Virus record (IMG/VR): IMGVR_UViG_3300020810_001175
Span: 20,280 to 84,279 of that record
Reading direction: 5' to 3' (one strand)
DNA length: 64,000 bases
Origin: a virus
Under the pieces are notes generated by a model. It did not search any database. It saw only the letters and a program-made list of their open reading frames with translations, and had not been told where the DNA came from. The translations under genes and the position numbers were made by a program. The first letter of the stretch is position 1, and every line of letters begins with the position of its first letter. Below are positions 46,804 to 61,631 of the stretch, one piece after another.

Positions 46804-48241
46804 ACAGAACAAAGACTATGGATATGAGATACAAAAACTGTATCTCGAAATGATGCTGAGTGACGCAGAAACATTTGTGCGTTGCCAATCTATATTTGAT
46901 TATTCTTTATTTGATAGAAAGTTACAAGACACAGCAGACTTTGTGAACAAGTATGTGTCACAATACAATTCATTGCCAACATATGACATTGTGAACAAGA
47001 GTTGTAATGTTGATTTGAAGCCAACAGAAAATCTAACTGAAGAACATTTTACTTGGTTGCTTGATGATTTTGAAACATTTGTTAGACACAAAAGTTTAGA
47101 AAGAGCAATTTTAAAATCAGCAGATATGTTGGAAAAAGGTGAATATGGTCCAGTTGAAGAATTGGTCAAGAAGGCAGTACAGATTGGATTACACAAAGAT
47201 ATAGGTACAGATTATTTCGATGATCCAAAAGCAAGACTTATGGGACTAAAAAATTCTAATGGACAGGTCAGCACAGGCTGGGCAACACTAGATAAGAAAT
47301 TATTTGGTGGATTTAACAAAGGTGAATTGAATATATTTGCAGGTGGTTCTGGAGCAGGTAAATCGTTGTTCTTGGCAAACTTAGGTTGCAATTGGGTATT
47401 GAATGGATTGAATGTGGCGTATATTACTTTTGAATTGAGTGAAGCACTAGTGAGTATGAGATTGGATTCAATGTTAACTGATATTCCAGCAAGAGAAATT
47501 TTTAAAGATTTAGATGGTGTTGAAATGAAAGTTAAACTGTTAGGCAAAAAAGCAGGTAGATTTCAAATCAAATACATGGCAAGTGGTAAAAATGCAAACG
47601 ACTTAAGAAGTTACATCAAAGAATATGAAATTAAAACAGGTAAAAAATTAGATGTAATACTGGTAGACTATTTGGATCTTATGATGCCAATCAGTAGAAA
47701 AGTTTCTCCAAGTGATTTATTTGTGAAGGACAAATTTGTTTCAGAAGAATTAAGAAATTTATCAATGGAATTGAATGTAATCTTTGTTACAGCATCGCAG
47801 TTGAATAGAGGAGCAGTAGAAGAAATTGAGTTTGATCATTCGCATATATCTGGAGGTTTAAGTAAAATACAAACTGCTGACAACGTGTTTGGTATATTCA
47901 CATCAAGAGCAATGAGAGAAAGAGGCAGATATCAAATACAGTTAATGAAAACAAGATCATCCAGTGGTGTTGGTCAAAAGATTGATTTAGAATTTGATGT
48001 GGACAGTTTAAGAATAAGAGATCTAGCAGAAGACTCAGACAGTCAAGATTATAAAGGGTCAAGCACAATTTATAATTCATTAAAAAAGACATCTACAGTT
48101 AATGATAGTGCAGAAAAAAACACAACTGAACTTAAATTACCTGATCCTACCAAAGGTGATACAGTAAGTAGAATTGATTCAGGTAATACTGATCAAACAA
48201 AATTAAGGGACTTCTTAAAGAACCTTGATGGCGATGAATAA
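46796..48241 (+). CDS. gp41: Replicative DNA helicase (T4 gp41/DnaB-like)
   Basis: STGW, GGSGAGKS, VDYLDLM, TASQLNR, KTRSS. Confidence 0.92.
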   Translation: MVKQNKDYGYEIQKLYLEMMLSDAETFVRCQSIFDYSLFDRKLQDTADFVNKYVSQYNSLPTYDIVNKSCNVDLKPTENLTEEHFTWLLDDFETFVRHKSLERAILKSADMLEKGEYGPVEELVKKAVQIGLHKDIGTDYFDDPKARLMGLKNSNGQVSTGWATLDKKLFGGFNKGELNIFAGGSGAGKSLFLANLGCNWVLNGLNVAYITFELSEALVSMRLDSMLTDIPAREIFKDLDGVEMKVKLLGKKAGRFQIKYMASGKNANDLRSYIKEYEIKTGKKLDVILVDYLDLMMPISRKVSPSDLFVKDKFVSEELRNLSMELNVIFVTASQLNRGAVEEIEFDHSHISGGLSKIQTADNVFGIFTSRAMRERGRYQIQLMKTRSSSGVGQKIDLEFDVDSLRIRDLAEDSDSQDYKGSSTIYNSLKKTSTVNDSAEKNTTELKLPDPTKGDTVSRIDSGNTDQTKLRDFLKNLDGDE

Positions 48242-54829: not shown

Positions 54830-55690
54830 TTAAGATATAAATGCATGGACAACTTTTTGTGCTAACATTTTCCAGTTAGCAAGTTCTCCAATTTCTTGAA
54901 TATGGTGTGCTTTGGTTCCGTCATGATAAGAACAACGTATCTGCATCATTCCTTTTTCAGGTCTAGCATCTGCGGTAACGCCTATTGCTGTTTGACAATC
55001 TCCATTAACTAATTCTAAAACATATCGTTCTGCCATTAATTCAATCGTGGGCCATTCTAATATTTGAGGATTCCATATGTCTTTCATTTTGATGTCATCG
55101 CTTCTTATCTGCACAACAACTTTTCCTTGTCCTGCGGCAGGCAACAATTCTGTTTCGGGCATCACAGTGTGTTGTACTTGTACGTTTAATCTATCTAACG
55201 CACACTTTGCCATAATGATTCCATCAACTTCTTGTTTAGCAATTAAATCTATTCTTGTTTGAATATTTCCTCTTATAGGCACAAACCGCAAATCAGGTCT
55301 TTGGTCTGATAACATTTTTGCTCTACGTGGAGCACTTGTTCCTATTCTGTATCCGCTTGGAATAGAATCAAAATTTTCGAAAGGTCCAATCAACACATCA
55401 CGTCTGTCACCTTGCTCCCAGACACATCCTAATAGTTCTGTGCCGTCTGCTATTTCCGTTCCAACGTCTTTGGCACTGTGTATCGCACAATCTATTTCAC
55501 CTGAAAGTAACTTGTCTTCTATGGCAGAACAAAAAATATGTTTGCCACCCATTTCATGAATAGGAGTTGTTTGATCTATATCGCCTTGACTTTTTATTTG
55601 AATTAGTTCATAAGGTTGAACCAAACCTGACGCGGCTCCGTCTGCTTGTCTAATGGCGAGAGGTGATCCTCTAGTTCCTATCTTTAACAT
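54830..55690 (-). CDS. hemC: Porphobilinogen deaminase (hydroxymethylbilane synthase)
   Basis: IGTRGSPLA, GD, HSAKD, GTSAPRR, RGNIQTR, PAAGQG, AER, GDCQTAIG (cofactor Cys). Confidence 0.93.
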   Translation of the reverse strand: MLKIGTRGSPLAIRQADGAASGLVQPYELIQIKSQGDIDQTTPIHEMGGKHIFCSAIEDKLLSGEIDCAIHSAKDVGTEIADGTELLGCVWEQGDRRDVLIGPFENFDSIPSGYRIGTSAPRRAKMLSDQRPDLRFVPIRGNIQTRIDLIAKQEVDGIIMAKCALDRLNVQVQHTVMPETELLPAAGQGKVVVQIRSDDIKMKDIWNPQILEWPTIELMAERYVLELVNGDCQTAIGVTADARPEKGMMQIRCSYHDGTKAHHIQEIGELANWKMLAQKVVHAFIS

Positions 55691-56356: not shown

Positions 56357-56602
56357 ATGTATTATAGAATAAAATTTATATTAAAAGATTTGTTTTTGAC
56401 CCCTTTTAAGATGTTTTGGAAACAGATCACAATATCAGTCATACTGTCCATAATTTTTACATTGTTGGTCAAACCAGATATATCAGTATTTTTAACTATG
56501 GTTGGTATTTGTTTTTTAGCATCATTAATGATCACAATGGCTAATGACAATTATAACCGTCAAAAAGAAAAAATCTTAGACGCTCTTAAAGAGAAAAAAT
56601 AA
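56357..56602 (+). CDS. Small two-TM membrane protein
   Basis: SD AAGGAG; two hydrophobic segments and a charged tail. Confidence 0.65.
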   Translation: MYYRIKFILKDLFLTPFKMFWKQITISVILSIIFTLLVKPDISVFLTMVGICFLASLMITMANDNYNRQKEKILDALKEKK

Positions 56603-56949
56603 TGAGTGAAAAAACGAAACAAATATTAGAAAATTTAAGAACCATTGTTCAGAAAGAACCGGTGGAGGATCCAACCACACAAGGAGCAATTGCCAGCAAC
56701 ATGGGTGGCGATAGAATATACGGAAGTATCAATAACACTATTCATTTAATTAATGCTGACGGATCTAGATACAAAGGCAAAATAGACAAACGAAGAATCA
56801 CAGTAAAAGGTATAGACGGTGCTAATTTTTTCAGTCATGTGTACGAAACAGCAGATGGTAGATGGTTTGATAGAACTGGATTACCTTGTGCTAAACCGAC
56901 CACTCTAGTTAAACAATCTGAAAACGAGATTGTTGAAACTGATAATTAA
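56602..56949 (+). CDS. Hypothetical protein
   Basis: Coupled ORF. Confidence 0.6.
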   Translation: MSEKTKQILENLRTIVQKEPVEDPTTQGAIASNMGGDRIYGSINNTIHLINADGSRYKGKIDKRRITVKGIDGANFFSHVYETADGRWFDRTGLPCAKPTTLVKQSENEIVETDN

Positions 56950-56953
56950 TTTC

Positions 56954-57214
56954 ATGATTACTTTAGAACAGTACAATGATATGCCCGAGTACTGGGACTA
57001 TCAACGCAAGATAGAATTCAACAAAGAAAAATGTCGCAAGGCTTGTGAGAACATACAAGAAAATTTTGGAGAGTTGTCCAGCGAAGCAGACGTAGATGAT
57101 ATGTTTGAAATGATGTGGCACCAGATTGAAGCAGAAGATTATGAAGATCCACCTTTGGATTGGGTACCAAAAAATCCTGCACTGAGATTAGAACACGAAA
57201 CATACAATAAATAA
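56954..57214 (+). CDS. Acidic hypothetical protein
   Basis: ORF; start at MITLEQ. Confidence 0.55.
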   Translation: MITLEQYNDMPEYWDYQRKIEFNKEKCRKACENIQENFGELSSEADVDDMFEMMWHQIEAEDYEDPPLDWVPKNPALRLEHETYNK

Positions 57215-57218
57215 TTGC

Positions 57219-57386
57219 ATGACACACACACTAAAATACGGAACCAACGAGCCTGTTTATAATGCAGGTAACTTTCAAGAATATCATTATGAGCTGGAAC
57301 ATATGGAATGCGAGTGGAAAATAATTTACGGCACATTTAATTTGGTAACAGCATTCACATATCCTTGGATTCAAATACGCTATTGA
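57219..57386 (+). CDS. 55-aa hypothetical protein, not in the ORF track
   Basis: AATAAATA 5 nt before ATG; MTHTLKYG...WIQIRY. Confidence 0.5.
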   Translation: MTHTLKYGTNEPVYNAGNFQEYHYELEHMECEWKIIYGTFNLVTAFTYPWIQIRY

Positions 57387-57456
57387 CAAACAGTCAAAAA
57401 CGTGTTAAATTAATCACTATGTATTAAATGCATACCTGCTATGCTAAATACATATA

Positions 57457-57502
57457 CGTTCAGGCATCAGCCCGGAAGTAGGTTATACCGAAGGAACGCA
57501 CC
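57457..57502 (+). ncRNA. Glutamine riboswitch (glnA RNA motif)
   Basis: P1 CGTTC/GAACG, P2 GGC-ATCA-GCC, GGAAGTA junction, P3 GGT-TAT-ACC, GAAG; followed by SD AAGGAGG and ATG. Confidence 0.8.
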
Positions 57503-57524
57503 TAACTTTAACAAGGAGGGTGAT

Positions 57525-57719
57525 ATGAATAGATTCAGTCATCTACTTAAAAAATACACAGAAAATAGTGTGCTAGCCAAAAAGGCAATGACGCTGTTTA
57601 GTGCTAGAAAAGAAGTAGATATCAATGCCAATGGCACACAAGGATACGTGGTAAAACACGGTCCTAATGCAGGCAAGGCATTGGCACACAGAGCAGTCAA
57701 ATCTACAAATAATTGGTAA
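57525..57719 (+). CDS. 64-aa basic protein downstream of the glutamine riboswitch
   Basis: SD AAGGAGG at 57513; MNRFSHLLKKY...KSTNNW. Confidence 0.75.
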   Translation: MNRFSHLLKKYTENSVLAKKAMTLFSARKEVDINANGTQGYVVKHGPNAGKALAHRAVKSTNNW

Positions 57720-57983
57720 TTATTTTTTAGTAAACAAAAAAGACCTGCTGGCGGAACTGTATCTAAAATTCAAGTTTCGCCAGTGCGGTTCACTCCAAAT
57801 TGTTTTTTCCCAATGTCTACAAGCCTGATGTGTCCAGCGTTCTAAAGCCACTTTGATTTGATATCTATTGTGAGGCTGTTTGAGTGCTTCATCCATGAAT
57901 CGCACCAACTCCACATCTGAAAAGACGTCTTCTCCTTCTAGGGTGTGTCGGATGGTTTTTTTAGTGTGTCGAGTGGATCGCAT
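57720..57983 (-). CDS. Hypothetical protein
   Basis: 87-aa ORF with an upstream TAAATA. Confidence 0.5.
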   Translation of the reverse strand: MRSTRHTKKTIRHTLEGEDVFSDVELVRFMDEALKQPHNRYQIKVALERWTHQACRHWEKTIWSEPHWRNLNFRYSSASRSFLFTKK

Positions 57984-58019
57984 ACTAAAAGTATATTTAT
58001 TCAGCCGATAAATATTGTT

Positions 58020-59327
58020 ATGCGTTACAGAGAATTCAAAAAAACAATAACAGAGGCCACTATTGCCTCATCTACACCTTCCAGTATACCTACATACATT
58101 GCAAATTTAAATCAGTTATTATCAACTAATCAACCCATTCTAGCAGGTAAACAGGGAGAAATTAATTTTGTTCCTGATCCGAATCAAAAAGTCAACAGTA
58201 TCGCAGATGTGATTAAGGGTAAGATTGACAATAAACCTGCTGAAATACAAGTGAGCAAAGTTTTCAAAAGTGCCGATGTAAAAGGCAAAGCGGGGAGATC
58301 ATTCAATTTAGGTAATGCAACCGAAGGAATGTTTGCCACTGCTATCTATACAAGATTGATCACAGACAAAGATATTTCAATACAGGGTTTAAAATCTAGT
58401 TTGGCTAAATTACCGCCACACAATAAAAACGGTGTAACTGTTGGGCCTGCTTCAGTAAAAGATAGAAAAGGTATTGTAGATAAAATTCAATTGTTTATTA
58501 AATTAGATGTCAGCAGTTATGAAGGTATTAAGGATCCTCAATCTTTACAAAATTTAATTCCTCATCTACAATCAATTGTAAATTATGTAAACAATGAAGA
58601 AATAAAAACACTGACCGCAGAATTTAAAAATAATGGCACAGTTGATTCTGTAAAAGTAATATCCGATGGAGTTACAGATGCTAAAAGTTCTAAAGTAGAT
58701 GTTGAAGTAGTTTATCTCAACGACAAAGGTGAAAGAAAAGTTGTTAGATATGAAAGATCAGTTAAAACCGGAGGAGTAAAACAGTTTGGTCAAGTCACAG
58801 CCGGAGGAGCCAAGCCTGAAGATGATACAGGCAAAGGTATAACACGAACAGAACGATATGATTTACAAGAACAGTTTTGGGACGATTTTGAAATTGATAT
58901 TTCCGCTTCGCAGGATGACTTTGAAGATTGGCCAGATTTTGTTGAAGCATATGATTTTACATACGCTGAAGCGGCTAAACAATTAAATGCTAAACTACAA
59001 GGTGATAAAAAAGAAAAACAAACTGTAAAAAATATTTTTGACGTGATTAAGAAACATGGGTTCGGAGATAGACCTAATGCTAAAACTGTAGACTTTGGAC
59101 CGAAAGGTTACAAAATTTTAGATTATAAAAAACTAGATGACTTCATTGAGAAAACAGATTTATCAGCAAAATTTATAAAAGAACAAAAGAGACCAGGAGT
59201 CGTAATACAAGATCAAAACGGAAAAGATTTTGTGATAATAAGATTGTACAAAGGTGAAACCAAAATGACCAACATGATAGAACGTGGTCCGGCAATGGAA
59301 CAAATAGTAAAAGTAAAAGAAGGTTAA
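58020..59327 (+). CDS. Hypothetical (probable internal head) protein
   Basis: GATAAATA 5 nt before ATG; MRYREFKKTITEA N-terminus. Confidence 0.6.
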   Translation: MRYREFKKTITEATIASSTPSSIPTYIANLNQLLSTNQPILAGKQGEINFVPDPNQKVNSIADVIKGKIDNKPAEIQVSKVFKSADVKGKAGRSFNLGNATEGMFATAIYTRLITDKDISIQGLKSSLAKLPPHNKNGVTVGPASVKDRKGIVDKIQLFIKLDVSSYEGIKDPQSLQNLIPHLQSIVNYVNNEEIKTLTAEFKNNGTVDSVKVISDGVTDAKSSKVDVEVVYLNDKGERKVVRYERSVKTGGVKQFGQVTAGGAKPEDDTGKGITRTERYDLQEQFWDDFEIDISASQDDFEDWPDFVEAYDFTYAEAAKQLNAKLQGDKKEKQTVKNIFDVIKKHGFGDRPNAKTVDFGPKGYKILDYKKLDDFIEKTDLSAKFIKEQKRPGVVIQDQNGKDFVIIRLYKGETKMTNMIERGPAMEQIVKVKEG

Positions 59328-59328
59328 T

Positions 59329-59688
59329 ATGAATCCAGTAGAATTGATAAAAAAGATATTACAGGCACTTGATCAACAAGAGCAAGAAAAAGATCTGCCC
59401 AATGCCAACAGAATGAAACAAATAGATGATGTGAATCAAAAGACCATCACACAGTATTCCAACTCTCCAGATGAAAGATATTCCACCGTGGACAAGGTCA
59501 CAACCAAAGCAGGAGGCGGTGCCAACTATCCAAAACATCCAGCAGACATCAGAGGTGAACATCCATCACAGTACCCTGAAACACGCAAAACTTTTAGAGA
59601 CTACTACGCTGATGTGGTGTCACAAAGACAAACATCACATGATGCAATGATAGATCAAATGAACACCATGAACAAGGAGACCGAATAA
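59329..59688 (+). CDS. Hypothetical protein
   Basis: YSNSPDERY...AGGG..PKHPADIR motif. Confidence 0.55.
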   Translation: MNPVELIKKILQALDQQEQEKDLPNANRMKQIDDVNQKTITQYSNSPDERYSTVDKVTTKAGGGANYPKHPADIRGEHPSQYPETRKTFRDYYADVVSQRQTSHDAMIDQMNTMNKETE

Positions 59689-60869
59689 TGGCAACTGTAA
59701 AATATAGAGGATTGAGTGGTACCAGAGTGGAATTGACTGTGAACACCACAGACACTCTAACCACAATAACCAATGCGGCAATTGCCGATGAAGGTTTGAA
59801 TGCCAACTACTATGCTGACTTCTTTTTGTTGAGAGACAACTCAGTATTGTTATCAAACAGCGGCGCACAAACTTATGCTCAATTGAATTTGACTGCTGAT
59901 GATGAATTGGTGGCTGTGTTGGATGACGATCCTGCCACGTACACCAAACAGGAACGTCAGGTTAGAAAATTAGAAATTGCCAGCATACAGCGTGAAGATG
60001 ATGGTTATGCCAATCATGTTTATGATTTGACCTCACTGCCAGATACCTACAACGGCAATGTACCAGGAGCAGATGACAATCCCAACACAGGCGGATTGTT
60101 GCCAAAACGTCCTTGGATAGAAGTGGGTGCTATTGCGGCGCCGACATCAATTGCAGAAGCAGTTGATGGTGGCTCACTGCCGGACCTACAGGTTTGGTAT
60201 GATGGCAGTGATCCTACAACTATTCAAAATGCTGGAGTTGATGAAGAAGATATAGAACAATGGAATGACAAATCTAATTTTGCTCACAACGCTAATCCTG
60301 TTGGAGGAGCATCTGCGAAACCGTTGTATGAAGCCAGCGATTTAAAAAATAACAATGAGTATGTTAAGTTCGACGGCAACGACATTCTCAGTGTTAATCC
60401 TTTTACACAACTCGACGAAGCAACTGGATGGAGTATGTTTATTGTTGCCAATGCTACAGACATCAGTGCCAACGGTGGATTGTGTGCTACAAACACAGGC
60501 GACTTGAAGATAAGAATTGACGCAGATGGTAGCACCAGTTTTAGAAGCACAAGCAACAACTATGCCTACTTTGGAACAGGCACTATTACAGATAACACTT
60601 GGCATATATGGAGTTTGATATATGATGGCACCGCATCAGGAAACGCAAGGCTGATTGGTAGGTTGGACAAGACCAGTGCTACACTTTACACAGGCACCCA
60701 ACCAGCACAATTAAGCACAGGAAGTGATATAATGTATCTTGGTAGCACCAACGAAGCAGGCTACGACCTAACAGGCTATATAGGTGAAGTTATTATGTTT
60801 AACAGAACACTTACAGCAACAGAATACGGCAACGTAGAAAACTATCTAAGCAACAAGTGGGGCTTGTAA
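59688..60869 (+). CDS. Putative virion protein: ubiquitin-like N-terminal domain plus LamG/ConA-like C-terminal domain
   Basis: N-terminal ~78 aa align with ubiquitin; C-terminal LQVWYDGSD...WNDKS...GYIGEVIMFNRTLT...ENYLSNKWG. Confidence 0.65.
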   Translation: MATVKYRGLSGTRVELTVNTTDTLTTITNAAIADEGLNANYYADFFLLRDNSVLLSNSGAQTYAQLNLTADDELVAVLDDDPATYTKQERQVRKLEIASIQREDDGYANHVYDLTSLPDTYNGNVPGADDNPNTGGLLPKRPWIEVGAIAAPTSIAEAVDGGSLPDLQVWYDGSDPTTIQNAGVDEEDIEQWNDKSNFAHNANPVGGASAKPLYEASDLKNNNEYVKFDGNDILSVNPFTQLDEATGWSMFIVANATDISANGGLCATNTGDLKIRIDADGSTSFRSTSNNYAYFGTGTITDNTWHIWSLIYDGTASGNARLIGRLDKTSATLYTGTQPAQLSTGSDIMYLGSTNEAGYDLTGYIGEVIMFNRTLTATEYGNVENYLSNKWGL

Positions 60870-60872
60870 TAA

Positions 60873-61631
60873 ATGGCTAACCGTAAGCACTACAATCTAA
60901 AACAAATGGTAGTCGCAGGCTACTCAGATGATCACACATTTAATCACAAGTTTGGTGCTGTTCCAAGTTTAAGCATCAACACCATGGGTACAATCTGGGA
61001 CATACCTGACACACTTTATCCTTGGACAGCATTGGACACTCCAGCGATAGTAAATGTGGAACGCAACGATGCTGATGACACAGGATTGATTGTTACCATA
61101 CAAGGATTGGACAGTGATTGGAACTTTCAAGAAGAACAAATCACAATCACAGGCGCGGATCAAGTGGGCACCAAACTGTGGCGTAGAGTCAACAGAGCAT
61201 TTGTTACTTCAGGCACAGCCGTAGTGAATGTGGGCGACATTGACATTGAAGCAGGAGCCGCCGGTGGAACCACAGTTGCTCGTATCACAGCCGACCTTGG
61301 ACAGACACTGATGGCTGTTTATACCATACCAGCAGGATACATTGGATACTTGTATCAAGGAACCATGACCGTACAGGCTAACGCAGATGCTACAGGCTTT
61401 ATGTTTATTCGCAGAAACACAGTAGGCACAACTTTCCGTGTTGGACATACTTTTGAAGTTGGTGGCGGATCACAATATGATTACGAGTTTGCCTTTCCAC
61501 CACCAATACCAGAGAAAAGCGATATTGATGTGAGAGCCGCAGTTAGAAGTAACAATGCTAGGGTCACAGCCGCTTTTGATATCTTGCTTGTTGAGAACGA
61601 TCCCGAAGCACCTATTACTGACCTACTATAA
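60873..61631 (+). CDS. Putative virion structural protein
   Basis: KFG..., GLDSDW, RVNRAFV, GQTLMAVYTIPAG, EKSDIDVR; beta-rich. Confidence 0.55.
   Translation: MANRKHYNLKQMVVAGYSDDHTFNHKFGAVPSLSINTMGTIWDIPDTLYPWTALDTPAIVNVERNDADDTGLIVTIQGLDSDWNFQEEQITITGADQVGTKLWRRVNRAFVTSGTAVVNVGDIDIEAGAAGGTTVARITADLGQTLMAVYTIPAGYIGYLYQGTMTVQANADATGFMFIRRNTVGTTFRVGHTFEVGGGSQYDYEFAFPPPIPEKSDIDVRAAVRSNNARVTAAFDILLVENDPEAPITDLL

What the first reader, a model, noticed from the sequence alone, without database searches (positions are those of the whole stretch)
57445..57719. Phage-encoded glutamine riboswitch behind a late-type promoter, in front of an unknown 64-aa protein
Seen: TAAATA (57445-57450), then 6 nt later CGTTC-A-GGC/ATCA/GCC-C-GGAAGTA-GGT/TAT/ACC-GAAG-GAACG-CACC, then SD AAGGAGG and a 64-codon basic ORF. 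A TTGACA-17-TAAATT promoter also lies at 57383. Established: this three-way junction with the GGAAGTA...GAAG element matches the glnA RNA motif (glutamine riboswitch), which in hosts controls nitrogen-metabolism genes. Inference: the phage senses host glutamine and switches on a small effector, for example a glutamine-synthetase/PII modulator or a lysis-timing factor. The ORF is not a gene I recognise.
Basis: partly seen in the sequence, partly recalled or inferred. Interest (0 to 1): 0.85.

Follow-up and report, generated by a model that had tools for sequence, protein, structure and literature searches.

The report
Phage glutamine riboswitch with small protein
A large marine phage carries a genuine glutamine-sensing RNA switch in front of a 64-residue basic protein, which is a phage copy of a small uncharacterised protein found in most SAR11 ocean bacteria; such switches are already known in phages, but what they control was not.

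Summary
Rfam's glutamine riboswitch model (RF01739) matches window 57455-57502 at 49.7 bits against a cut-off of 35. Helices P1 and P2 and a hairpin that hides the ribosome-binding site pair in 30 of 30 related leaders, with compensatory changes. The element is a self-contained module of about 290 bp (57429-57719): promoter-like block, aptamer, anti-Shine-Dalgarno hairpin and a 64-codon gene. It sits at different places in related phages estimated at about 350 kb. It most likely acts as a translational ON switch, as proposed for Synechocystis gifB.

The kind is known. Glutamine riboswitches are published for cyanophages and for OM43 and SAR11 myophages. This scan already holds 760 notes on them in at least 377 genomes, none with this protein.

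What is new is the cargo:
- The protein is not DUF4278/IF17.
- Its family is in 86 of 121 Pelagibacteraceae genomes, and in 0 of 300 other Alphaproteobacteria and 0 of 400 other Pseudomonadota sampled.
- It occurs in pelagiphages.
- It is fused in frame to a SpeD-like decarboxylase in 64 of 80 viral loci.

Its function is unproven.

The parts
57431..57450 (+). Conserved promoter-like block ending in TAAATA (57445-57450). It resembles a T4-late-type -10 box, and the transcript would start at or just before the aptamer.
   Evidence: The block ending in TATGCTAAATA or a TATAAATA variant recurs in the related leaders printed. DNA similarity to close relatives starts at 57429-57431. Across viral contigs, TAAATA ends 5-12 nt before P1 in 55 of 95 unique aptamers, against 0.6% of background tiles. 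TGCTAAATA occurs only once in the window. The start site is not mapped.
57455..57502 (+). Glutamine riboswitch aptamer, type 1 (glnA RNA, RF01739): P1 57457-57461/57494-57498, P2 57463-57465/57470-57472, core GGAAGTA 57474-57480, P3 57481-57483/57487-57489, GAAG 57490-57493.
   Evidence: Score 49.7 bits against a gathering score of 35, full-length match. P1 and P2 pair in 100% of cells in 30 leaders, and 3 of 3 P2 pairs show compensatory changes.
57499..57522 (+). Expression platform: a hairpin in which the tail CACCU (57499-57503, starting at the first base after P1) pairs with GGGUG (57518-57522), and CUU (57506-57508) pairs with AAG (57513-57515). This encloses the SD AAGGAGG (57513-57519).
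   Evidence: The fold gives -8.5 kcal/mol, z -3.74, and 0 of 200 shuffles fold as well. The outer helix pairs in 30 of 30 leaders, with C-G to U-A in 3. Seven or more compensating helix types appear among 103 unique leaders: mean anchored helix 4.40 against 3.07 in controls, control maximum 3.55.
57525..57719 (+). Gene for the 64-aa basic protein ('family A', phrog_32989). It has an N-terminal basic stretch and a conserved core of the form NGTxGYVVKHGPN...L.H...S..NW.
   Evidence: 20 invariant columns in 23 homologs. Third-codon-position differences dominate. phrog_32989 matches at E 5.9e-11. 1598 protein clusters match at E<=1e-3, none named and none with a Pfam domain among the 120 listed.
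57429..57719 (+). The whole module (promoter block + aptamer + platform + gene), which behaves as a discrete unit.
   Evidence: blastn similarity to relatives L005, L007 and L011 covers only 57429/57430 to 57718/57720. In L022 and L036 the module lies beside homologs of window 60867-61621 and 47560-48116 instead.
57383..57411 (+).
   Evidence: The site matches 10 of 12 positions, but the number of such sites in the region equals chance. It is not conserved in 15 relatives.

Best explanation
Window 57429-57719 is a self-contained regulatory module on a large marine myovirus (about 350 kb by CheckV's completeness estimate). A conserved T4-late-like TAAATA box starts an mRNA whose first about 48 nt fold into a type-1 glutamine aptamer.

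Proposed mechanism. Without glutamine, the five bases that follow P1 (CACCU) pair with GGGUG at the 3' edge of the Shine-Dalgarno sequence. That hairpin keeps ribosomes off. When glutamine binds, the first C of that tail is drawn into the aptamer's long-range G-C pair, the hairpin opens, and the 64-aa protein is translated. This would be a translational ON switch, as proposed for Synechocystis gifB.

What is shown and what is inferred. Shown: the aptamer, the hairpin, their covariation, and that the gene is real. Inferred: ligand binding, the ON direction, and the promoter.

The cargo. It is not a cyanobacterial IF17/DUF4278 protein. It is a phage copy of a small basic protein found, among genomes sampled, only in Pelagibacteraceae (SAR11). 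There one lineage, which includes strain IMCC9063, has it behind the same riboswitch. The phage therefore carries a host-type read-out of nitrogen status.

My preferred guess for the protein's job (about 25%) is that it works with pyruvoyl-dependent SpeD-like decarboxylases in polyamine synthesis, because it is fused in frame to them in many pelagiphage-like contigs.
For: Aptamer: RF01739 at 49.7 bits against 35. The same hit lies directly upstream of the homologous ORF in 23 of 47 related viral records, plus 2 decayed copies; 5 of the 47 are cut at the ORF, so their upstream could not be judged. P1 and P2 are 100% paired with compensatory changes.

Platform: the tail:SD helix pairs in 30 of 30 leaders. 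Compensating types include CACCU:GGGUG (35), CACUU:GAGUG (10), CAUCUUUC:GGAGGGUG (6), CACUUU:GAAGUG (6), CAUCUUU:GGAGAUG (3) and CAAUCUUU:GGAGAUUG (1) among 103 unique leaders. Hairpins of -5.6 to -9.2 kcal/mol form in 5 of 5 diverse leaders. The full-leader fold shows P1, P2 and this hairpin together. Klahn 2018 (passages read) states that the C of the ligand-dependent pair and the bases after it pair with the putative RBS, and that glutamine is postulated to melt that helix; gifB expression rises with glutamine.

Promoter and module.

Gene.

Host link: family A is in 86 of 121 Pelagibacteraceae genomes, in 0 of 300 other Alphaproteobacteria and in 0 of 400 other Pseudomonadota. The riboswitch plus family A lies on a 263-kb Pelagibacteraceae contig among cellular genes such as MnmA, a DEAD helicase and LysE. 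The 90%-identity cluster of that protein includes an IMCC9063 protein. 10 of 11 phage records with the protein are Pelagibacter phages.

SpeD link: three 50%-identity cluster representatives carry AdoMet_dc plus family A. 64 of 80 viral loci have both in one open frame and 13 have them as separate genes nearby.
Against: No ligand-binding, start-site or expression data exist for this RNA. Metatranscriptome contigs cover the whole region evenly and may be DNA.

P1 and the anti-SD hairpin are compatible in the secondary-structure fold. The switch therefore rests on a tertiary contact known only from the literature on other members.

TGCTAAATA occurs once in the window, and TATAAATA occurs 0 times on the + strand and once on the - strand. 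It is thus not shown that this phage uses such boxes as late promoters.

Most homologs of the protein lack the riboswitch.

The 84-kb record holds no SpeD gene (the record is only 24% complete). Only 4 of 48 related records hold one. The 80 fusion loci were selected with a fused query, so their share is biased.

A host from SAR11 for a roughly 350-kb phage is unproven. Window G+C is 35.5%.
Confidence: 0.75

Rival explanations
1. The 64-aa protein is a functional analogue, not a homolog, of the cyanobacterial glutamine-synthetase inactivating factors IF7/IF17. On this reading glutamine switches on a small basic inhibitor of host GS or of a GS-like enzyme.
For: It has the same regulatory logic and the same RNA class as gifB. 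It is small and basic: 64 aa, pI 10.35. In the same viral collection the same aptamer precedes DUF4278-like YRG peptides in 19 of 102 loci. That SAR11 lacks PII-type nitrogen control is recalled from memory, not checked here.
Against: No Pfam DUF4278 match in the window protein or in any of 23 members. hhalign against phage DUF4278-like peptides gives probability 0.07. No GS gene was seen next to it in the SAR11 loci inspected. Nothing links it to GS except the riboswitch.
Confidence: 0.15
2. The aptamer works in another way than a translational ON switch. It could be an OFF switch, a transcription or RNA-stability element, or a stable 5' structure or small RNA acting on another gene. The Melnitz paper proposed the last of these for ssrA.
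For: Buchholz 2022 assigns the Melnitz riboswitch to tmRNA control. A proposal that the related glutamine-II class is an OFF switch, based on its structure, is recalled from memory and was not read here.
Against: The linker is only 22 nt and holds no terminator-like site on the + strand. The tail:SD helix covaries. In Melnitz itself the aptamer is followed by the same kind of platform and by an unannotated 32-codon ORF, whose family follows the aptamer in 32 of 102 viral loci. Type-1 members tested in Synechocystis switch on.
Confidence: 0.1
3. The aptamer is a passenger, captured together with a host gene and no longer used by the phage.
For: Decayed copies exist (16.8 bits in L008 and L009). 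A phage group of about 60 kb keeps only a remnant of the linker.
Against: In the large-phage group the aptamer stays over threshold in 23 records while the protein diverges to 55-68% identity. Stems change by compensating mutations, which indicates selection on the fold.
Confidence: 0.05

Closest known systems
Type-1 glutamine riboswitch of the Synechocystis gifB (IF17) leader (Klahn et al. 2018, PMC6212724; passages read)
   Same: Same Rfam family and the same conserved core. The base after P1 and its neighbours pair with the ribosome-binding site, there is a small protein downstream, and the logic is presumably an ON switch.
   Different: The element sits on a phage behind a TAAATA box rather than an NtcA-controlled promoter. 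The cargo is not DUF4278/IF17. Neither ligand binding nor regulation has been tested here.
Glutamine riboswitches of marine myophages Melnitz (OM43) and Mosig (SAR11) and of pelagimyophage MAGs (Buchholz et al. 2022, PMC9004378; passages read)
   Same: A phage-borne RF01739 aptamer in phages of streamlined heterotrophs. blastn matches window positions 57473-57528 (aptamer 3' half, platform and start codon) to Melnitz at 80.7%.
   Different: There the switch was ascribed to ssrA. Here, and in Melnitz on re-reading, it precedes a small ORF. The ORF families differ (64-aa family A against 32-aa family B) and show no detectable homology. This phage is far larger, at about 350 kb estimated.
Downstream-peptide / glutamine-II riboswitch with short ORFs (Weinberg et al. 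2010, PMC2864571; passages read)
   Same: A glutamine-class aptamer immediately upstream of conserved short ORFs of no known family.
   Different: That is a different aptamer class (RF01704), restricted to marine picocyanobacteria, and its ORFs are mostly DUF4278-like. Here it is class 1 with a SAR11-type protein.
Pelagiphage SpeD homologs (AdoMetDC-derived pyruvoyl arginine decarboxylase of HTVC201P; Li et al. 2023, PMC9992855; passages read)
   Same: The decarboxylase domain fused to family A is 40-50% identical to these enzymes.
   Different: None of the 15 cultured-phage records has the fused form. Searches of that paper for 'fusion', 'C-terminal', 'extension', 'riboswitch' and 'glutamine' gave 0 occurrences each. 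The window's copy is free-standing.

Membership tests
Glutamine riboswitch, type 1 (glnA RNA, Rfam RF01739) | Covariance-model score at or above the curated gathering score | tested here: met
   49.7 bits against 35, model positions 1-53 of 53.
Glutamine riboswitch, type 1 (glnA RNA, Rfam RF01739) | Three-helix junction (P1, P2, P3) kept by compensatory changes | tested here: met
   P1 is 100% paired with one C-G to G-C change. P2 is 100% paired and 3 of 3 pairs are compensatory. P3 shows compensatory changes but only 77% pairing, because MAFFT misaligns 3-bp and 4-bp stems.
Glutamine riboswitch, type 1 (glnA RNA, Rfam RF01739) | Conserved junction bases (CGUUCA ... CGGAAGUA ... GAAGGAACGCA) | tested here: met
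   Identical to the consensus at these positions. They are invariant or at least 90% conserved in the 30 leaders.
Glutamine riboswitch, type 1 (glnA RNA, Rfam RF01739) | Selective binding of L-glutamine | not testable with these tools
   Needs in-line probing or ITC.
Glutamine riboswitch, type 1 (glnA RNA, Rfam RF01739) | Bases after P1 pair with the ribosome-binding site of the downstream gene (gifB model) | tested here: met
   The model itself comes from the Klahn 2018 passage; its Supplementary Figure S3 could not be seen.
Glutamine riboswitch, type 1 (glnA RNA, Rfam RF01739) | Downstream gene is DUF4278/IF17 or a recognised nitrogen-metabolism gene | tested here: not met
   No Pfam family for the 64-aa protein. 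This is an association, not a defining structural feature, so RNA membership stands.
GS-inactivating factors IF7/IF17 (Pfam DUF4278, PF14105) | Match to PF14105 or profile similarity to DUF4278 peptides | tested here: not met
   0 of 23 members match. hhalign probability is 0.07. Positive control: riboswitch-linked YRG peptides from the same viral collection do match PF14105 (E 4.8e-7 to 9.8e-4 in 4 of 10 proteins scanned, 2 of them over the 25.3-bit cut-off).
GS-inactivating factors IF7/IF17 (Pfam DUF4278, PF14105) | Binds and inhibits glutamine synthetase | not testable with these tools
T4-type late promoter | TATAAATA-like box a few bases before the transcript start | tested here: inconclusive
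   The window has GCTAAATA. The box is conserved in relatives and enriched before viral aptamers. It is unique in the window, and no 5' end could be mapped.
T4-type late promoter | Phage encodes gp55/gp33-type late transcription factors | not tested
   Not searched. The record is only 24% complete.
PHROG phrog_32989 (unknown function) | Profile match | tested here: met
   E 5.9e-11, residues 7-52 on profile positions 6-52 of 54.
SpeD-like decarboxylase + family A fusion proteins | AdoMet_dc domain in the same reading frame | tested here: not met
   The window's gene is free-standing, and no PF02675 match occurs in the 84-kb record. Only the family A domain is shared.

The most novel reading that the evidence does not exclude
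Family A may be the missing effector of glutamine sensing in SAR11 and its phages. It would be a small basic protein, switched on by glutamine, that binds and tunes a pyruvoyl-dependent arginine or AdoMet decarboxylase (or a GS-like enzyme). It would thereby couple nitrogen status to polyamine supply for DNA packaging. Because this protein was found only in Pelagibacteraceae among genomes sampled, its presence on contigs estimated at about 350 kb would also point to the first jumbo phages of SAR11.
Probability: 0.15. Interest if true: 0.8.

Novelty: new member of a known kind. Interest (0 to 1): 0.5.

Why it matters
Glutamine riboswitches are understood only in cyanobacteria, where they gate an inhibitor of glutamine synthetase. 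This case shows the same sensor, with a covarying anti-Shine-Dalgarno platform, packaged with its own promoter as a 290-bp module that sits at different places in related large marine phages.

It also identifies what the sensor controls there: a protein family that is near-universal in the SAR11 genomes sampled, common in pelagiphages, and repeatedly fused to a polyamine-pathway decarboxylase. That turns "what do phage glutamine riboswitches regulate?" into a testable question with a named candidate and a named partner.

It also suggests that the published assignment of the Melnitz riboswitch to tmRNA control should be re-examined.

Tried and rejected
- DNA search of window 56500-59500 against 50,697 phage records found no match.
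- Sigma-70 promoter at 57383: present, but at the chance rate and not conserved. Rejected as part of the element.
- 92-aa ORF from 57441: rejected, because its extension has stop codons in 10 of 13 relatives.
- Homology of the protein to DUF4278 was rejected. Homology to the roughly 32-aa peptide family that follows the aptamer in Melnitz was also rejected (hhalign probability 0.28).
- PDB sequence profile search: the only row is eukaryotic ribosomal protein eS6 at E 6.1, and no member matches the S6e Pfam family. Treated as chance.
- NCBIfam: only OdhI at E 0.13. Treated as chance.
- ESM Atlas: the best rows score 0.82-0.84 and are unnamed. This gives no lead.
- The family A peptide pattern found nothing in 185,579 species genomes. 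The pattern was too narrow; the profile search did find the family.
- Rfam scans of pelagiphage loci, of loci where SpeD and family A are separate genes, and of six SAR11 loci found no riboswitch.
- RNA runs: six salt-marsh metatranscriptomes hold the stretch. When laid, they give long contigs at even depth over the whole 2.3 kb, so neither transcription nor a 5' end is shown. The extra depth over 57486-57528 comes from other organisms' leaders and says nothing about this gene.
- My parser for the SAR11 leader pseudoknot failed. The loop-to-strand complementarity is therefore reported by eye only.
- Supplements of Klahn 2018 (Tables S1 and S2, Figure S3) and of Buchholz 2022 (Table S1) are closed. 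They may list phage or environmental associations that I could not see.
- Claims of 'not in print' rest on searches and on term searches within papers.
- Ames & Breaker 2011, Ren et al. 2015, the OFF-switch proposal for glutamine-II, the PII-independence of SAR11, and the small size and basic character of IF7 are recalled from memory, not read here.

Full report
**The observation.** The sequence is as described. TAAATA lies at 57445-57450, followed by a compact three-way junction at 57457-57498. Then come the tail CACC from 57499, the SD AAGGAGG at 57513-57519 and the ATG at 57525, which opens a 64-codon ORF ending at 57719. Rfam's Glutamine model RF01739 matches 57455-57502 over its full length at 49.7 bits (gathering score 35, E 6.7e-8). 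It is the only family over threshold in the window and in the whole 84,279-base virus record. CheckV rates that record 24% complete, implying a genome of roughly 350 kb. The phage is a contractile-tailed virus: its 1076-aa sheath protein is about 40% identical to those of PA5oct-like and Phosso-like jumbo phages.

**Relatives confirm the aptamer.** A search of IMG/VR with the 64-aa protein gave 47 loci. RF01739 is over threshold in 23 of the 47 records, always directly upstream of the ORF. Two more hold a decayed 16.8-bit copy, 17 lack it, and in 5 the contig is cut at the ORF, so the upstream sequence cannot be judged. The 23 records include fragments of 116-185 kb rated 32-51% complete, so they form a clade of very large phages. 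The records without the aptamer extrapolate to about 60 kb. In an alignment of 30 distinct leaders that precede this protein family (A5), P1 and P2 are paired in every sequence and all three P2 pairs change on both sides. Overall 94.7% of cells pair, against 84.2% in shuffles (0 of 500 reach it) and 35-48% with slid partners. P3 also shows compensating changes but is partly misaligned by MAFFT.

**The expression platform.**
- The five bases after P1 (57499-57503) pair with GGGUG (57518-57522) at the 3' edge of the SD.
- An inner CUU:AAG helix closes over the rest of the SD.
- Alone, this hairpin folds at -8.5 kcal/mol (z -3.74; 0 of 200 shuffles as good).
- In the full leader it coexists with P1 and P2.
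- The outer helix is paired in 30 of 30 leaders, with a C-G to U-A exchange in three.
- Across 103 unique aptamer-plus-ORF leaders from all loci, 73 have at least 4 contiguous pairs anchored on the first base after P1.
- The helix appears in many compensating versions: CACCU:GGGUG 35, CACUU:GAGUG 10, CAUCUUUC:GGAGGGUG 6, CACUUU:GAAGUG 6, CAUCUUU:GGAGAUG 3, CACUC:GAGUG 3, CAAUCUUU:GGAGAUUG 1, and others.
- The mean anchored length is 4.40, against 3.07 when tails and SD regions are mismatched (maximum of 500 controls 3.55).

This matches what Klahn et al. 2018 describe for gifB. There the C of the ligand-dependent long-range pair and its downstream neighbours can pair with the putative RBS. Glutamine is postulated to melt that helix, and expression rises with glutamine (passages read). 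I therefore read the element as a translational ON switch. The pairing is shown; ligand binding and direction are inferred.

**Promoter and module.** A block ending in TATGCTAAATA, or a TATAAATA variant, precedes the aptamer in the related leaders. In a wider sample of viral contigs, TAAATA ends 5-12 nt before P1 in 55 of 95 unique aptamers. The same motif occurs in 0.6% of background 16-nt tiles. The T4-like late box TATAAAT is the motif that Buchholz et al. used to find late promoters. In this window, however, TGCTAAATA occurs once and TATAAATA once, on the minus strand. The box therefore travels with the module and is not a common promoter of this phage. blastn shows that similarity to close relatives begins at 57429-57431 and stops at 57718-57720. 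In L022 and L036 the module lies next to homologs of quite different parts of the window. The unit is thus a roughly 290-bp cassette. The sigma-70-like site at 57383 is at chance level and not conserved.

**The gene.** The ORF is real. Twenty of 64 columns are invariant across 23 homologs of 55-91% identity. Differences concentrate at third codon positions (for example 8/5/19 for L006). The upstream in-frame extension is interrupted by stops in 10 of 13 relatives. The protein is basic: pI 10.35, with 11 K/R against 3 D/E. It has no Pfam family, no NCBIfam family, no relative of solved structure and no useful Atlas neighbour. It belongs to phrog_32989, of unknown function.

**Where the protein family occurs.**
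- The profile finds 1598 clusters at 90% identity. The 120 best listed carry no name beyond 'hypothetical protein' and no Pfam domain.
- It finds 153 representatives at 50% identity.
- In cultured phages it occurs in 11 records, 10 of them Pelagibacter podoviruses or siphoviruses. Three of three inspected lack the riboswitch.
- A pattern joining the aptamer and this platform hits 22 species genomes. Among them are two Pelagibacteraceae MAGs in which the riboswitch precedes a 70-aa member of the family. One lies on a 263-kb contig among ordinary cellular genes.
- That protein's 90%-identity cluster includes a hypothetical protein of the cultured strain Pelagibacter sp. IMCC9063.
- The family profile matches 86 of 121 Pelagibacteraceae genomes, but none of 300 other Alphaproteobacteria and none of 400 other Pseudomonadota. 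These are samples; many genomes are incomplete.
- RF01739 is found in only 2 of the 121.

So the cargo is a lineage-specific SAR11 protein that pelagiphages and these large phages also carry. The riboswitch-plus-gene arrangement exists in one SAR11 lineage.

**A functional lead.** Three representatives (194, 204 and 109 aa) join an AdoMet_dc domain (PF02675) to family A. Searching IMG/VR with one of them gave 340 relatives. Of the 80 loci kept, 64 have both parts in one open frame, 13 have family A as a separate gene close by, and 3 lack it. For example, L243 has a 132-aa SpeD-like gene, a 61-aa gene and a 65-aa family A gene. The set is biased because the query was the fused form. The decarboxylase part is 40-50% identical to pelagiphage SpeD homologs, none of which is fused. 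One of those homologs is a pyruvoyl arginine decarboxylase (Li et al. 2023, passages). A SpeD gene is present in 4 of 48 records that carry family A, once convergent about 340 nt downstream of the gene, but not in the 84-kb record of the window. This is a Rosetta-stone hint of a link to polyamine synthesis, not proof.

**The wider picture.** Of these, 102 have the full aptamer. Its downstream ORF is:
- a roughly 32-aa basic peptide family in 32 loci;
- a DUF4278-like YRG peptide in 19;
- family A in 18;
- two further small families in 8 and 5;
- other small ORFs in 13;
- and none found in 7.

The roughly 32-aa family also follows tandem aptamers in SAR116, Ca. Levibacter, Ca. Marisalimonas and betaproteobacterial genomes. 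In phage Melnitz the riboswitch was published as controlling ssrA. There the aptamer is followed by the same type of platform and by an unannotated 32-codon ORF of this family.

**What is known, and novelty.** Glutamine riboswitches in T4-like cyanophages and in OM43 and SAR11 myophages are in print. The class and its short downstream ORFs were described in 2010. This scan holds 760 notes on phage glutamine riboswitches in at least 377 genomes, none sharing this protein. The RNA is therefore a new member of a known kind. I found no paper naming this protein family, its SAR11 distribution or its SpeD fusion (searches; term searches). The supplements of the key papers were closed.

**Verdict.**

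| Claim | My odds |
|---|---|
| The riboswitch is real | about 0.95 |
| Translational ON switch through the anti-SD hairpin | about 0.75 |
| Late-type promoter | about 0.5 |
| Protein acts with a SpeD-like decarboxylase | about 0.25 |
| Protein is a GS-inhibitor analogue | about 0.15 |
| Host is SAR11 | about 0.4 |

No fold or binding test could therefore be made.

Noticed in passing
L052 (Methylophilales phage Melnitz, MZ577097.1) 2484-2632: The published 'ssrA-controlling' glutamine riboswitch is followed by a covarying anti-SD platform and an unannotated 32-codon ORF. A 33-aa minus-strand CDS is annotated there instead. The same peptide family follows the aptamer in 32 of 102 viral loci and in betaproteobacterial and SAR116-type genomes.
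   Followed up: partly
L277, L280-L300 (Pelagibacteraceae genomes), about 80-95 nt before the family A start codon: Most SAR11 copies of the gene lack RF01739 but have a conserved leader with no Rfam hit in six loci. The leader has a CCAU-loop-AUGG hairpin, an A-rich linker, a strand complementary to that loop (CCAC:GUGG, UCAC:GUGA, GUC:GAC by eye), a second covarying hairpin and a UU..AAAG..GG box. It may be an undescribed cis-regulatory RNA. Two further leader types exist, one of them behind a gene ending in a CGCG..SF motif.
   Followed up: partly
L173-L252 (IMG/VR contigs); proteins P0126, P0147, P0157: In-frame fusions of a SpeD-like pyruvoyl decarboxylase with the family A protein occur in 64 of 80 loci. 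No cultured phage has the fused form.
   Followed up: partly
L253-L274 (species genomes): Tandem glutamine aptamers with the same platform precede 35-40-aa basic ORFs in SAR116, Ca. Levibacter (complete chromosome), Ca. Marisalimonas and several Burkholderiales/Betaproteobacteria genomes. Type-1 glutamine riboswitches are therefore not confined to cyanobacteria and phages.
   Followed up: partly
L267 (contig of a 'Porticoccaceae' MAG, 118,694 bases): The neighbours of the riboswitch cassette are T4-like baseplate gp6, gp25 and PAAR genes. This contig looks like a myophage binned into a bacterial MAG.
   Followed up: partly
L008, L009; L010, L012, L013 and similar loci: There is a decayed aptamer (16.8 bits) in two contigs. 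In phages of about 60 kb the family A gene keeps only a remnant of the linker (ttcacctaa..aaggagg) without the aptamer or the GGGUG partner.
   Followed up: no
window 54830-55690 (-): A full-length porphobilinogen deaminase (HemC; Porphobil_deam, E 3.3e-59) is encoded on the phage. This is an unusual auxiliary gene.
   Followed up: no
window 57219-57386 (+): A 55-aa ORF just upstream of the cassette has about 72% DNA similarity to stretches of L005 and L006 that lie at other positions relative to the cassette. It has no family.
   Followed up: no
window 57486-57528, runs X1, X2, X15, X16: Salt-marsh metatranscriptome contigs from other organisms overlap only the conserved 3' half of the aptamer and the platform, at word depths of 48-262 against about 10-20 for the phage. 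One continues into a family B-type ORF. Contig depth cannot rank expression.
   Followed up: no
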